Source: Ophelia neglecta
Taxonomy: Eukaryota
Length of the DNA stretch: 64,000 nt
Direction: 5' to 3'
Assembly (NCBI GenBank): GCA_965285935.1
Contig: OZ260666.1
Span: 43,028,001 to 43,092,000 of the forward strand
In this document: positions 12,001-64,000 of the stretch, piece by piece
How the letters are laid out: each line of letters begins with the position of its first letter
Position numbering within the stretch: position 1 is the stretch's first letter
Made by a program: the position numbers

Positions 12001-15000
12001 GTTGGATATAGTTCAGCTGTATTTTATTTGCTGGAGAAGTAAAACTCTGTCATCTGTTCATCATTGTTTTTATATACAGTACATCTTGGCAGAGACCATC
12101 ATTATCCCAGGTGTTAGTTGGTATAAAGTTTACTTCATGGTTACTTGGACTTGTCTCTTCCTCTCAGCCTAACCTAGCAGTAAGAGGATACCATCCAGCA
12201 GGGCTGATCCCACTCTGCTAATCTCACATCTATTGGATTTAACAAGCAGACACTTGTATTTTTTTTAATCCAAAGATCAATGATCAGTGTAGTACTAGTA
12301 TTTATTAAGTTTGGTGTGTGTGGCCAAGTATGAGGCTCAACCCAGTCACCTTTGAAATGTGGAAATCAAGTCAGTTTTACCATTGAGCGTGCTATCAGAT
12401 GTGACAGCGTTAGGGAGATACAAAACAGGAAAAAATAACTCCATTCACCATCAAGTACCATTGCTCCATACTTATTTAAATAAAATCCTGGAAAATCTCG
12501 GTCTGCATGTTATTAATGCCTGTTTTGTCGAGTGTGGTAGGTAACGAGCTGGTATTAAACAGGCTACATATAAACAGGCAATGAGAAACTGAGATAGAGA
12601 GACTTGGAATGAAGTATCACTGACTAAAGTCATGAAAAGGTGAGCTCAACAAGTGATTTGAAAGTCAATTACAACATGATGTTGTCCCATATCAAACACA
12701 ATTGTTTTATGGAGATAAGCTGTGAAATTTCATGAATATAAATCTCACGTCCTTGATAGAGCTTACTGCCTTGAAGGGAAGACACTGATCTGTGCTTCAT
12801 TGATCAACTGCTAACGTTTCCGCTGGAGGTAGAATATTATCGGATTTCACTTGACAAAACAGTGCGAGAATCTTCAACATTTACCCAATGATTTTTTCTG
12901 CCGGTGGATTATTTATTCATGATCTGTCATGTTGGATACACCCATATTAGCCCCAGAGCTGGATGATGGATATTGCTCTTTTGACTGCAGGCTCTGGGTC
13001 GGATGTCTAGATTAGCCCACCTGTTTGTAAACAATACACTGTGGATTACCTGTAATTTACCTGAGGATAACCTGTAGATAAAGAGACAAGCAGAGAGACA
13101 GACCACTAATAGTGACTTCACTGAATTGTCTTTTTAAGCATGAATTGTTGTTTTCAGCATGGATCAGTTTATGAGTGATTTTGGTAGAAAAGGATTATCA
13201 TACATTGACTGTGTACTCAATTAAACACAGGAATGGTGAAATCACTGCAAAAATTGGTGGCTGTAAATTATTGTGAAATTAAAGGACAAGGTTGATTGGA
13301 TGTTAATGAGTTGAAGGTGTGTTATAATATTAGTGAGTGTGATAGGAGAGTTGAGGGTTATTTGTAGTAGTGGATTACATGTGACAGCTCTGAGCTGTGG
13401 TGAGGTATCAGGGACCATTCACCACCAGGCTGGATTCTCCAGATGAGTCTGACCTGTCAGGGCTAATATACGTCTGGTCACCTCCTCACTTTCTAGTCAG
13501 AGTGTAGTCAGGCCTCATAGACTATCACCAACCCCCACACACTCGCCAAATTAACACTCATCGCTCCCTACACACGCAAACACCCACTACACGCAAACAC
13601 CCACCGATTGGCTCAGATGTTTGTGGGACTTTCCTATCACTGATTGATTTTCCAGTTTCCGACACAGATTACTTTCCAGTTTAGTAAGTTCTTATGAAAT
13701 AAACCACAAAGGATACCCACAAATTAGATCAGGGTAAGCTAGCCATTATGCTCTGACATAAAAGATGTAAAATTGCCGTGTGGAAAGGACTGAGGTCAGT
13801 TGAGTCTAATCAAATTGTGTCCGGATATAAGAATAGGCCTCTGTTGAAAACAGGAAAACATTTCACTGAGACAAAGGTGTGTTTGCCAAACCTGACAATG
13901 TACAGACCAGCAAACAAGACAGTCTACACACTGTTATTTCAAGTTCTGGGGTGATAATTGTTTTTGAGTTCTGGATAGTAATAGAGTAGTTGAGACACTG
14001 TAGCAAGTGTATCTCAGCTGGAGGATTTTCTTTGGCTGAAGCCATTTCATAATTGTGCGTAATGTTTGGGGACACAGTAGCCCACATGGAGGTAAGAGAA
14101 GCCAGTGAGATGCCAAATGCTCTGGCTAGCAGCTGGCTCTGATTATACCAAGATATCTCACCTGCCGGCTAAACACCTACATCGTCAAAACATCCCCAAA
14201 AACATTCTCCAAAACATTCATCGAACAGGACTTGAATTGTGGCCAGGAGTGCCCGGAACAGTACAACTCTGATCTGTTGATATGGAGCTATGTCCAAAGG
14301 CACAGTAACCATTTGCTTCAATGCCTCTCTGTTGAGAGGTGAGGTGTAATTATTCCGTCTGGTCTCTGGCTTTGAGAGAGCAAAGTGGCCATTATTATAT
14401 ATTGGATTAAAACAGTGTGAGTAATTTATTGTATGTAACATATTCATAGATAAACATTATATAATGAAAATGGGCAGCCAGGAGGCCAGTGGACTTTTCA
14501 CAATTTCTCAGAATGCTCACTGGGGTCATCCAGGAGAACGGACATCACTCATATCACAAGAGGAAATGGAAGCTGAGCTGGAGAAATTCATGATGGAATT
14601 TACCAACTTAGAGATAGGGTCAGAGAGCCAGTCTCTGGTGTCTAGCAGCCCATCTCCCCCCAGCTCTGTAACCACGCCGATGTCCTTCAAGGACTGGCAG
14701 ACCCTGGAGAAGGAGATGACTGTGGCTACAGTACACTGTCCCCCCAAACCCAGGTCCCCGTCCCCACCTGTGTTTGAGAACTACCGGGCCGACCTTGACC
14801 TTGACAGTATACCCCCAGCAGAGGATCTGGTGAGGAGGGCTCAGGGCCTAAAGGTCATAGACCAAGTCATTGACCAGTTTGGAAGCCCAACCAGTGATGA
14901 CACACCAAAAATGGGATTCAAAAGTGGTGATGTATCACACAATACTACTGAATCAGAGGCTCATACCCAGGTGACAAGTGATAACCAAGTAATGAGGAGG

Positions 15001-63000: not shown

Positions 63001-64000
63001 TTTCTAGTGAAACTACAGGCCAACCAACTGCAGGGGAGTTTATAGAAGAGACTCATTTACAGTCCATGCCCACCTATGTCAAAGATAGAGATTTTTTGAA
63101 CTCTCAAAACAGGTTTCATGCTGGTTGCTGTCCCGGGGTCGACCTGTGTTGCCACAAAGTGGGAAGTGACCATGGACAGCATGTATGTGTTCAAAAGGAA
63201 TCCCACCAAGGATTGACTGCCAGTTTGGGGTCTGGATATTCATTGCCATCACTCCACTCAGTAGCTGGGCCTTCAGATTTTGCCCGAGGGCATGGTTTTC
63301 TTGAGACCCACATTCACAATGTTATACAAGAGATACCCCAAAATAAAACCATTGTGACTGACAAAGTACTGAGTAAAGAAATAAAATCTGACTACACTGA
63401 AAAACCAACTTTAAAAGTCAGAAGTGTTTCTCCGCCCCCAGAGCCAAAGAAATATGTTGCAGCTGTGCAGCTTTCTCCTGAAATACCTAAGGAGGAACCT
63501 AAGATAGAGAGACAGGAGCTCTATGTTCCTACGTCAGATGCCTCCCTTCCAGAAAAGTACTTTACTGTCAAAGTCAGTCCAACTAATTTGCCAAATACTC
63601 TAAGCCTTAAAACTAAAGTATCTGATAATCAAGACTTAGATGCTCTAAATTCTGGTTTCAAAAGAACCTCAAAATCAGAATTTACAAAAACAGAAATCTT
63701 AAATCTTCCACATAAGAAGGAAGTTCATGAACAAATCACACCAGTTAAGAGACCAACTGCTGAGTATTTTGTGAAAAAGCAGAAGCAAAAGGAATTGTAT
63801 GAATCCCCGAAGAAAGAAGAGAAGGACACAAACATCTCTAACATCTGTGACTATGTTATTGATGTCTGTGATGGCGTCATCAGCATGTGCAATGATATTG
63901 AAGAGCGCCAAACTCCAAAGAAGATTCAAGATAACTACAAGGGCATACCAAGAAAGAGCTGGGAAGACACTGATAAGAGGGAATATACAGAGAAAATTAA

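What the first reader, a model, noticed from the sequence alone, without database searches (positions are those of the whole stretch)
14464..64000. Tensin-like locus with a cassette of swappable N-termini, each carrying different signalling motifs
Seen: at least three, possibly four, ATG-initiated exons (14464, 27275, 46039, 59582) of very different size all end in phase-0 donors, and the two main acceptors (C1 exon 40926, giant exon 59922) are phase 0. Known (recalled): vertebrate TNS1 also uses alternative first exons spliced to the PEDLE-C1 exon. Inference: promoter choice plugs different motif modules (Grb2/dileucine/palmitoyl; PP2A-B56; SH3 ligand; 14-3-3/PP1/NPxY plus coiled coil) onto one focal-adhesion scaffold, with or without C1.
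Basis: partly seen in the sequence, partly recalled or inferred. Interest (0 to 1): 0.7.

Follow-up and report, generated by a model that had tools for sequence, protein, structure and literature searches.

The report
Tensin gene start with orphan giant exons
The window holds the two exons for the zinc-finger (C1) domain that opens a tensin focal-adhesion gene, flanked by two very long protein-coding stretches with no known relatives, but whether these are swappable front ends of one tensin protein cannot be shown from this sequence.

Summary
The coordinates and reading-frame arithmetic are correct. Two things are solid.

- **Tensin-type C1 exons.** Exons 40926-41037 and 41300-41337 encode a C1 domain. 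The nearest relatives I looked up are mostly tensins. The four I scanned have C1-PTP-C2-SH2-PTB. In those relatives, alternative N-termini diverge exactly at the window's acceptor (PQD...).
- **Two real ORFs.** ORFs of 553 codons (14464-16122) and at least 1359 codons (59922 to the window end) far exceed chance.

The rest is unproven.

- **No tensin body.** No PTP, C2, SH2 or PTB exon lies in the 64 kb.
- **Orphan ORFs.** Neither long ORF resembles any tensin or any protein found. Both look disordered.
- **Small exons.** The ATG exons at 46039 and 59582 are at chance level. The one at 27275 is a weak lead only.
- **Giant ORF.** It has its own in-frame ATG and the window's only strong CpG-rich patch. 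It probably starts a transcript, either an internal-promoter isoform or a nested gene.
- **C1-to-giant splice.** Joining C1 directly to the giant ORF would drop the last zinc-binding cysteine.

Alternative first exons on tensin are already known (human TNS2 1a/1b/1c, TNS1 1E). Verdict: an ordinary tensin 5' region with unusual, unlinked orphan ORFs.

The parts
14464..16122 (+). 553-codon ATG-initiated ORF ending at a phase-0 donor (CAG|GTAAAT). Candidate long 5' coding exon. The frame closes 10 codons past the donor. Contains three YDN sites and a 24-nt x 4 repeat (KPISVNGS).
   Evidence: No Pfam, PDB or homologue hit. The Atlas top score of 0.85 is uninformative. AF2 single-sequence mean pLDDT is 42.
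27275..27340 (+). 22-codon ATG piece with a perfect donor (CAG|GTGAGT). It could also be an internal exon starting at 27266, after TAG/AG. Weak lead as a pre-C1 acidic segment.
   Evidence: the only 9/9 donor case; score 32 against the Ptychodera pre-C1 segment, reached by 8-17 of 1000 shuffles, one of 42 comparisons.
40926..41037 (+). C1 exon a: phase-0 acceptor, phase-1 donor. Encodes PQDLESQTHTFKAKVFKRPRNCSLCKQLVWNQGSACR.
   Evidence: C1_1 E 1.3e-4; 68% identical to the amphioxus tensin-3-like model by tblastn; 70% by phmmer; tblastn E 3e-12.
41300..41337 (+). C1 exon b: completes the Val codon, encodes CKYVCHKRCEPR, phase-0 donor AGG|GTGAGT. With exon a it carries 7 of the 8 zinc ligands.
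   Evidence: (E 0.001 to 6.4 across the 12 C1-bearing models).
41541..41573 (+). Candidate 11-codon micro-exon (IHYTCICTCKS) that would give the missing C-x7-C cysteine. Unsupported: it lies in TG-rich low complexity and has no VPP.NYELP motif.
   Evidence: Six such patterns occur in the 22.6 kb downstream of C1.
46039..46164 (+). 42-codon ATG piece, donor CAT|GTAAGT, proline/basic tail. Chance-level candidate. It could also be an internal exon from acceptor 46000.
   Evidence: SH3 motifs reached in 0.37-0.38 of shuffles.
59582..59614 (+). 11-codon ATG piece, donor CAG|GTAAAC (7 of 9), weak Kozak context. Chance-level; it may be 5' UTR of the giant ORF's transcript.
59922..63998 (+). Giant ORF of at least 1359 codons, open at the window end. 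In-frame ATG at 59931. Ser-rich N-terminal third, Q-rich repeat region, then a low-confidence disordered tail with NPLY-EGM and two R-S-x-S-x-P sites.
   Evidence: No homologue, no Pfam or PDB hit. Atlas 0.80. pLDDT 37 for residues 800-1359.
59251..61250 (.). The only strong CpG-rich patch of the window: 26-28 CpG per kb in the windows starting 59501-60001 (18-19 at its edges) against a mean of 6.4. CpG o/e is 0.66 in 59922-60421 against 0.17 overall. Promoter-like.
61287..61779 (+). 57-nt (19-residue) tandem repeats inside the giant ORF (LQQQE.Q.KLQQENQKQLI type).

Best explanation
The window is the 5' part of a tensin-family gene on the + strand, in a heavily CpG-depleted animal genome that I do not take for human.

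Shown:
- Exons 40926-41037 and 41300-41337 are the tensin C1 exon pair.
- Both intron positions match those implied by public models from insects, amphioxus and vertebrates.
- The acceptor at 40926 is the point where relatives attach alternative first exons.

Inferred:
- The 553-codon ORF 24.8 kb upstream is a lineage-specific, disordered 5' coding exon. It probably splices 16122>40926 and adds three Grb2-type YDN sites in front of C1.
- The 27275 piece may be a second first exon or a cassette exon.
- The giant ORF sits in the long intron after C1, where C1-less tensin isoforms start in relatives. It carries its own ATG and the only CpG-rich patch, so it most likely begins a transcript from an internal promoter.

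Unknown: whether that transcript runs on into the tensin PTP-C2-SH2-PTB body or is a separate nested gene. The pieces at 46039 and 59582 are not distinguishable from chance.
For: - **C1 identity.** The 37-residue exon gave 44 library hits at E<=0.001. I looked up 20 of them. Six are named tensin: amphioxus, Ptychodera, Patiria, Antedon, Diadema and frog.
- **Domain architecture.** All 4 full-length hits scanned have C1_1, PTEN_C2, SH2 and PTB.
- **tblastn.** Of 14 named models, 12 hit C1 exon a at E 4e-13 to 1e-6. The two that miss are C1-less isoforms.
- **Acceptor position.** Antedon isoforms diverge exactly before PQE. Other relatives carry different N-termini before PQ[DE] or PPE.
- **Intron positions.** Read-through artefacts place introns after 'CR'+G (P0011, P0014, P0020) and after 'CE.[KR]' (P0004, P0017, P0058), as in the window.
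- **ORF length.** 553/576 and 1359 codons, against a maximum of 226 in 100 shuffles.
- **YDN.** Three copies; 0 of 2000 shuffles reach that.
- **CpG patch.** It sits at the start of the giant ORF, which has an in-frame ATG at 59931.
- **Strand skews.** T>A and G>C on the + strand in all three non-exonic intervals. Reading this as + strand transcription rests on recalled knowledge from mammals.
- **Precedent.** Alternative first exons and internal promoters are documented for human TNS2 (PMC5122378, passages read) and TNS1 (PMC11702514, passages read).
Against: - No transcript evidence exists for any junction.
- Neither long ORF resembles the N-termini or any other part of the 14 named tensin models. 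No hit outside C1 scored below E 0.78.
- Known pre-C1 first exons are short: 9-58 residues in the relatives and 19-35 in human TNS2 (PMC5122378).
- The first ORF closes 10 codons past its donor, and an ATTAAA lies 114 nt after that stop. It could therefore be an intronless gene, though that signal occurs 1.8 times per kb.
- The strand skews are also positive upstream of 14464, so transcription may start further upstream.
- No PTP, C2, SH2 or PTB exon, and no V.T.C-PP.NYELP exon, is in the window.
- The three word-index searches could have missed relatives. They covered 969-2765 residues for the first ORF, and 747-5000 residues for residues 1-340 of the giant ORF only.
Confidence: 0.45

Rival explanations
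1. All four ATG exons are promoter-selected first exons of one tensin gene. The giant exon is part of the common tensin body, reached from 46164, from 59614 and from the C1 exons.
For: All phases are compatible. The 27275 and 46039 pieces have 9/9 and 8/9 donors. Relatives have both C1-bearing and C1-less isoforms. The Diadema model has a Q-rich stretch in its C1-PTP linker.
Against: The small exons occur at the rate of the opposite strand. Splicing 41337>59922 would leave C1 without its eighth zinc ligand, which relatives encode in the next exon (V.T.C); that exon is absent here. The giant ORF matches no tensin. In the 4 scanned relatives the PTP-type match begins roughly 90-105 residues after C1, with no giant insert.
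Confidence: 0.15
2. Only the C1 exons belong to tensin. The 553-codon ORF is an independent intronless gene. The giant ORF is an independent same-strand gene nested in the long intron after C1, with its own promoter.
For: Both ORFs have their own ATG (14464/14470 and 59931). The giant ORF has a CpG patch. The first ORF has a stop 10 codons after its putative donor and an ATTAAA 114 nt further on. Neither ORF has any tensin similarity.
Against: Both ORFs lie on the tensin strand, at the places where tensin relatives have alternative first exons. Both are disordered and carry enriched short motifs (YDN x3; R-S-x-S-x-P x2), as adaptor regions do. The first ORF ends at an 8/9 donor in the phase the C1 acceptor needs. 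No homologue as a free-standing protein was found for residues 1-340 of the giant ORF among proteins of 747-5000 residues.
Confidence: 0.3
3. The giant ORF is an expanded C1-PTP linker exon of the C1-bearing isoform. It is reached through a micro-exon (41541-41573, IHYTCICTCKS) that supplies the last cysteine at C-x7-C spacing.
For: The candidate has a pyrimidine-rich acceptor (ttctgcag), a phase-0 GTGAAT donor and the right Cys spacing. The Diadema linker is about 140 residues and partly Q-rich.
Against: The candidate lies in TG-rich low complexity, where TGT codons are common. Six comparable patterns occur in 22.6 kb. The conserved VPP.NYELP motif is absent. The CpG patch and the ATG at the giant ORF's start point to a transcript start instead.
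Confidence: 0.1

Closest known systems
Invertebrate deuterostome tensins (NCBI models: tensin-3-like of Branchiostoma XP_078702238.1, tensin-1-like of Ptychodera flava XP_070570202.1, tensin-like of Patiria miniata XP_038047143.1, tensin-1-like of Antedon mediterranea XP_071941780.1)
   Same: The C1 exon is 50-68% identical by tblastn. It starts with the same PQ[DE]..ES.. sequence after variable first exons, and the C1b exon shows the same CE.[KR] ending. Antedon has C1-bearing and C1-less isoforms.
   Different: Their pre-C1 N-termini are 9-58 residues, and PTP follows C1 closely. None has anything like the 553-codon ORF or the giant Q-rich ORF. The zinc-finger-like first exon of the amphioxus and Ptychodera models is not in the window.
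Human TNS2 (C1-ten) exons 1a/1b/1c
   Same: Three alternative first exons, each with its own ATG, are spliced to the shared exon that encodes C1 (PMC5122378, passages read).
   Different: They add only 35, 25 and 19 residues and gave no detectable difference in localisation (same paper). Here one candidate is 553 residues, and none is supported by transcripts.
Human TNS1 erythroid isoform (exon 1E, internal promoter)
   Same: A lineage-restricted internal promoter and alternative first exon give an N-terminally different tensin (PMC11702514, passages read). This is the nearest analogue for a promoter at the giant ORF.
   Different: Exon 1E codes for 9 residues and lies far inside the gene. The giant ORF has at least 1359 codons, and its link to a tensin body is unknown.
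Frog and turtle tensin-type C1 models (XP_069839607.1 tensin-1-like; XP_026509816.1, named kinase D2-like by its source)
   Same: A first exon followed by a PEDLE/PENLA-type C1 exon.
   Different: Their first exons begin with MGC (a recalled acylation-type motif). The window's first ORF begins with MKMGSQEAS and is far longer.

Membership tests
Tensin (C1-PTP-C2-...-SH2-PTB adaptor) | C1 domain whose closest relatives are tensin C1 domains | tested here: met
   44 hits; 20 looked up, 6 of them named tensin; 4 of 4 scanned have C1_1, PTEN_C2, SH2 and PTB; tblastn E 4e-13 to 1e-6.
Tensin (C1-PTP-C2-...-SH2-PTB adaptor) | Gene structure of the C1 region: phase-1 intron after 'CR', phase-0 intron after 'CE.[KR]', last Cys in the next exon | tested here: met
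   Window. The intron positions in relatives are inferred from read-through artefacts in named models and from the point where isoforms diverge. No genomic sequence of relatives was examined.
Tensin (C1-PTP-C2-...-SH2-PTB adaptor) | PTP-like domain and PTEN-type C2 domain | tested here: inconclusive
   None is in the 64 kb: tblastn with 14 tensin models and motif scans. One weak hit at 52564-52683 (E 0.78-5.7) has a stop close by. The gene may continue past 64000.
Tensin (C1-PTP-C2-...-SH2-PTB adaptor) | C-terminal SH2 and PTB domains | tested here: inconclusive
   No hit in the window.
Tensin (C1-PTP-C2-...-SH2-PTB adaptor) | The 553-codon ORF and the giant ORF are tensin sequence | tested here: not met
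   No similarity to 14 named tensin models below E 0.78. No Pfam family. No homologue.
C1 domain (Pfam PF00130) | H-x12-C-x2-C-xn-C-x2-C-x4-H-x2-C-x7-C zinc ligands (pattern recalled) | tested here: inconclusive
   Seven of the 8 ligands lie in the two exons. Exon a alone scores E 1.3e-4 at 22.1 bits, under the 26.5-bit cut-off because it is half a domain. The eighth Cys is not located; there is only the unsupported candidate at 41541. The exons were not joined for a search.
Alternative-first-exon cassette as in human TNS2 | Several ATG-bearing first exons, each seen spliced to the common C1 exon in transcripts | not testable with these tools
   No transcript data. Phase compatibility is met, but it is also met by chance candidates.

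The most novel reading that the evidence does not exclude
A tensin gene in which promoter choice attaches giant, lineage-specific disordered modules. One is a 553-residue module with three Grb2-type YDN sites placed in front of C1. The other, driven by an internal CpG-rich promoter, is a module of at least 1359 residues with a Q-rich repeat region (coiled coil by inference only), two 14-3-3-type sites and an NPLY-EGM site. That last site could fold back on tensin's own PTB domain or recruit PI3K. Such a protein would be a self-associating, self-regulated tensin unlike any described.
Probability: 0.2. Interest if true: 0.55.

Novelty: new member of a known kind. Interest (0 to 1): 0.3.

Why it matters
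If the long ORFs are truly tensin exons, one focal-adhesion adaptor would gain whole signalling and oligomerising modules through promoter choice. That goes well beyond the 9-35 residue differences known in human TNS1 and TNS2. As the evidence stands, the secure result is modest: the 5' end of a tensin gene with a conserved C1 exon pair and a conserved attachment point for alternative first exons. Next to it lie two orphan disordered ORFs whose gene assignment needs transcript data.

Tried and rejected
**Searches that found nothing**
- Word-index homologue searches: first ORF against proteins of 969-2765 residues; giant ORF residues 1-340 against 2380-5000 and 747-2379 residues. The first ORF was not searched against proteins of similar length, and the later parts of the giant ORF were not searched at all.
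- Pfam on both long ORFs and on 10 other ORFs of the window. The only row returned was a sub-threshold DUF3922 match on the giant ORF (E 0.22, 12.5 bits against a cut-off of 25).
- PDB sequence search on both long ORFs.
- ESM Atlas on the first ORF (top 0.85) and on giant ORF residues 800-1359 (top 0.80). Both are below the 0.9 level at which a hit means anything.
- Rfam on the whole window: 0 matches.

**Structure prediction**
- AF2 without an alignment gave mean pLDDT 42 and 37. No fold search was run on such models.

**Searches for missing tensin exons**
- PTP start motifs: none.
- The VPP.NYELP exon: none.
- A C2H2-like first exon, as in the amphioxus and Ptychodera models: none.
- An MG.C acylation-type first exon: only a closed 11-codon frame at 26264 without a usable donor.

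**Comparisons that did not hold up**
- The small exons and the ends of the first ORF were compared with the pre-C1 N-termini of 7 relatives. Only one of 42 comparisons fell under 0.02, and it does not survive multiple testing.

**Not done**
- Hits without a name (Logan, ENA, JGI, MetaClust) were looked up but not used, because their origin is unknown.
- The exons were never joined into a spliced protein for any search or fold.
- The collection genome contigs holds only bacteria and archaea, so it was not scanned.
- The organism could not be named.
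Full report
**What the window is**

The window is 64,000 bases with no N. GC is 0.39 and CpG observed/expected is 0.17, so it comes from a heavily CpG-depleted animal genome. The nearest C1 sequences found are at most 70% identical by phmmer, and the closest named ones are invertebrate. I do not take the window for human. I could not name the organism.

**Check of the observation**

All coordinates hold.

| Piece | Codons | Junction |
|---|---|---|
| 14464-16122 | 553 | donor CAG\|GTAAAT |
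| 27275-27340 | 22 | donor CAG\|GTGAGT |
| 46039-46164 | 42 | donor CAT\|GTAAGT |
| 59582-59614 | 11 | donor CAG\|GTAAAC |
| 40926-41037 (C1 exon a) | 37 + 1 base | phase-0 acceptor, phase-1 donor |
| 41300-41337 (C1 exon b) | completes a codon, then 12 | phase-0 donor |
| 59922-63998 (giant frame) | 1359, open at the end | opens after TAG 59919-59921 |

The four ATG pieces all end in phase 0.

The two long ORFs are far beyond chance. In 100 shuffles of the window the longest ORF averaged 148 codons, with a maximum of 226.

The small pieces are not beyond chance.
- ATG-ORFs of 11 or more codons with a phase-0 GT[AG]AG donor use 16 distinct donors on the + strand and 14 on the - strand.
- With a 9-position donor score, the counts at 7 or better are 29 against 25. 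At 8 or better they are 7 against 3. At 9 they are 1 (the 27275 piece) against 0.
- Three other + strand pieces (24141, 34027, 53162) do as well as 46039.

Three details change the picture.
- TAG 59919-59921 forces the 'phase-0 acceptor' of the giant ORF.
- An in-frame ATG follows at 59931.
- The frames in front of 27275 and 46039 allow acceptors at 27266 and 46000, so those pieces could equally be internal exons.

**The C1 exons are tensin's**

Exon a alone matches Pfam C1_1 at E 1.3e-4. That is below the curated cut-off, as expected for half a domain.

An exhaustive phmmer search of 1.84 billion representatives with these 37 residues gave 44 hits at E<=0.001. I looked up 20 of the 44. Six are named tensin:
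- Branchiostoma tensin-3-like (70% identical by phmmer, 68% by tblastn)
- Ptychodera flava tensin-1-like
- Patiria miniata tensin-like
- Antedon mediterranea tensin-1-like
- Diadema antillarum tensin-1-like
- Dendropsophus tensin-1-like

An older Branchiostoma floridae model of the same gene, and short insect, turtle and turbot models with generic names, were also among them. Eight clusters gave no species, and I did not use them.

All 4 full-length models scanned carry C1_1, PTEN_C2, SH2 and PTB, and a PTP-type match.

tblastn of 14 named models against the window hits exon a with 12 of 14 (E 4e-13 to 1e-6). It hits exon b at the adjoining residues (E 0.001 to 6.4). The two that miss are C1-less Antedon isoforms.

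**The attachment point is conserved**

In Antedon, two different first exons (ending ...ENVSSK and ...WFHFSQ) meet the same PQEILESK. Patiria (MGKCLTTLK), Diadema, amphioxus and Ptychodera each carry a different N-terminus in front of PQ[DE] or PPE. That is the window's acceptor (PQDLESQ).

Antedon isoforms X5 and X6 start after C1 (MSVQTE..., MESLDLDVDYITER).

Read-through artefacts in named models mark both C1 introns at the window's positions:
- 'CRG...' in two crickets' relatives, a water bug and a cockroach model.
- Divergence after 'CE.[KR]' in the old amphioxus model, the frog model and one cricket model.

This is an inference from protein models. I did not see their genomic sequence.

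**What is missing**

No PTP, C2, SH2 or PTB exon is in the window. Apart from the C1 hits, no tblastn hit is below E 0.78. A recurrent weak hit at 52564-52683 (E 0.78-5.7) has a stop close by. PTP start motifs are absent.

In relatives the eighth zinc ligand of C1 lies in the next exon (V.T.C followed by VPP.NYELP). No such exon is in the window. A direct 41337>59922 splice would therefore truncate C1.

One candidate micro-exon, 41541-41573 (IHYTCICTCKS), would restore the C-x7-C spacing. It lies in TG-rich low complexity, and six comparable patterns occur in the 22.6 kb after C1. I do not rely on it.

**The two long ORFs**

Neither has a Pfam family at threshold, a PDB relative or a homologue in the searches made. 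Those searches covered the first ORF against proteins of 969-2765 residues, and residues 1-340 of the giant ORF against 2380-5000 and 747-2379 residues. Neither resembles any of the 14 tensin models. The Atlas scores of 0.85 and 0.80 are uninformative.

Single-sequence AF2 gives mean pLDDT 42 for the first ORF and 37 for giant ORF residues 800-1359, with only a few helices. This is consistent with disorder, but the test is weak without an alignment.

First ORF:
- Three YDN sites (SDYDNDS, SNYDNEP, GDYDNIS). None of 2000 shuffles reaches three. pY-x-N is the Grb2 SH2 consensus (recalled).
- A 24-nt x 4 repeat.
- If translation starts at the second ATG (14470, A at -3, G at +4), the product begins with MGSQEAS. 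That fits the recalled N-myristoylation pattern. This is speculation.

Giant ORF:
- 192 Gln in 1359 residues.
- 57-nt (19-residue) tandem repeats. A coiled coil is my inference and was not computed.
- Two R-S-x-S-x-P sites; 0 of 2000 shuffles reach two.
- One NPLY followed by EGM; a fraction of 0.08 of shuffles reach it.

- The B56-like and SH3-type motifs in the small pieces are at chance (0.22 and 0.37-0.38 of shuffles).
- No RVxF match was found.

**Where transcripts may start**

The only strong CpG-rich patch lies at 59.3-61.2 kb. It reaches 26-28 CpG per kb, against a window mean of 6.4. CpG o/e is 0.66 in 59922-60421. For comparison it is 0.18 in the first ORF and 0.16-0.22 in the rest of the giant ORF.

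In a CpG-depleted genome such a patch usually marks an unmethylated promoter region (established knowledge, not tested here). With the ATG at 59931, this makes the giant ORF a likely first coding exon rather than an internal one.

T>A and G>C skews on the + strand are positive in all three non-exonic intervals, including upstream of 14464, and their confidence intervals overlap. This fits + strand transcription through the whole window, possibly starting upstream of it. It is soft evidence.

**The 27275 piece**

It has the only perfect donor. It also shows a weak likeness (LGELEPIKEDE against IGQLEEYESDE) to the acidic segment just before the C1 exon in Ptychodera: score 32, reached by 8-17 of 1000 shuffles. 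This was one of 42 comparisons, so it is a lead only.

**Comparison with what is known**

Human TNS2 has exons 1a, 1b and 1c. They give 35, 25 and 19 unique residues in front of a shared C1, with no detectable effect on localisation (PMC5122378; abstract and passages read).

Human erythroid TNS1 uses an internal, lineage-restricted promoter with exon 1E, which codes for 9 residues (PMC11702514; passages read).

So a cassette of alternative tensin first exons, with or without N-terminal domains, is an established kind. The only new element here would be the size and content of the modules, and that is the unproven part.

I ran three literature searches and read passages in only these two papers. 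I did not search for descriptions of invertebrate tensin gene structure. Supplements were closed and were not needed.

**Verdict**

The window holds a secure tensin C1 exon pair at a conserved attachment point. It also holds two real but orphan ORFs whose link to tensin is plausible but unshown, and two small 'first exons' at chance level. No tensin body is in view.

The spliced model was searched exon by exon only. The joined protein was never built, so a full-domain C1 score and a fold of the joined N-terminus remain undone.

Noticed in passing
window 34372-37820 and 53510-54744: Two intronic satellite arrays: a 34-bp unit in about 100 copies (higher-order 68/102 bp) and a 32-bp unit in 38.5 copies at 91% match.
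   Followed up: partly
window 26264-26299: A closed 11-codon frame, MGGCFTFVCYL*, with a strong Kozak context. It loosely resembles the MGC...FICC start of the frog and turtle C1-bearing models (P0017, P0016). It has no usable donor before its stop, so it is either chance or a decayed acylation-type first exon.
   Followed up: partly
proteins P0007, P0046, P0012 (amphioxus and Ptychodera tensin models), residues 1-40: Their first exon carries a C-x2-C...H-x4-H pattern like a C2H2 zinc finger, shared between a cephalochordate and a hemichordate. No such exon is in the window on either strand.
   Followed up: partly
proteins P0029, P0010, P0017, P0016: The first exons of the starfish, sea urchin, frog and turtle C1-bearing models all begin with MG.C or MGC. 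That is a recalled myristoyl/palmitoyl-type start, which hints that a membrane anchor in front of C1 is an old alternative N-terminus.
   Followed up: no
window 52564-52683 (+): A weak, recurrent tblastn match (E 0.78-5.7, 33-34% identity) to the WPD-loop part of the tensin PTP domain (LQCVDLSWPRLLPFF against VLDIGWPDRLSPPL), closed by a stop. Most likely chance; a decayed exon is not excluded.
   Followed up: partly
window 14464-16122, residues 332, 453, 492: Three near-identical [DN]YDN sites in the 553-codon ORF; 0 of 2000 shuffles reach three. The second is followed by EPLL, a dileucine-type context.
   Followed up: yes
window 61130-61846 (+) and 61240-61833 (-): Overlapping open frames of 113-197 codons in other frames of the Q-rich repeat region. 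These are a by-product of its CAA/CAG-rich low complexity, not separate genes.
   Followed up: no
paper PMC5122378 against the NCBI models: The 2016 paper says C1 is found in no tensin other than TNS2. Current NCBI models named tensin-1-like or tensin-3-like in frog, amphioxus, hemichordate and echinoderms do carry it.
   Followed up: no
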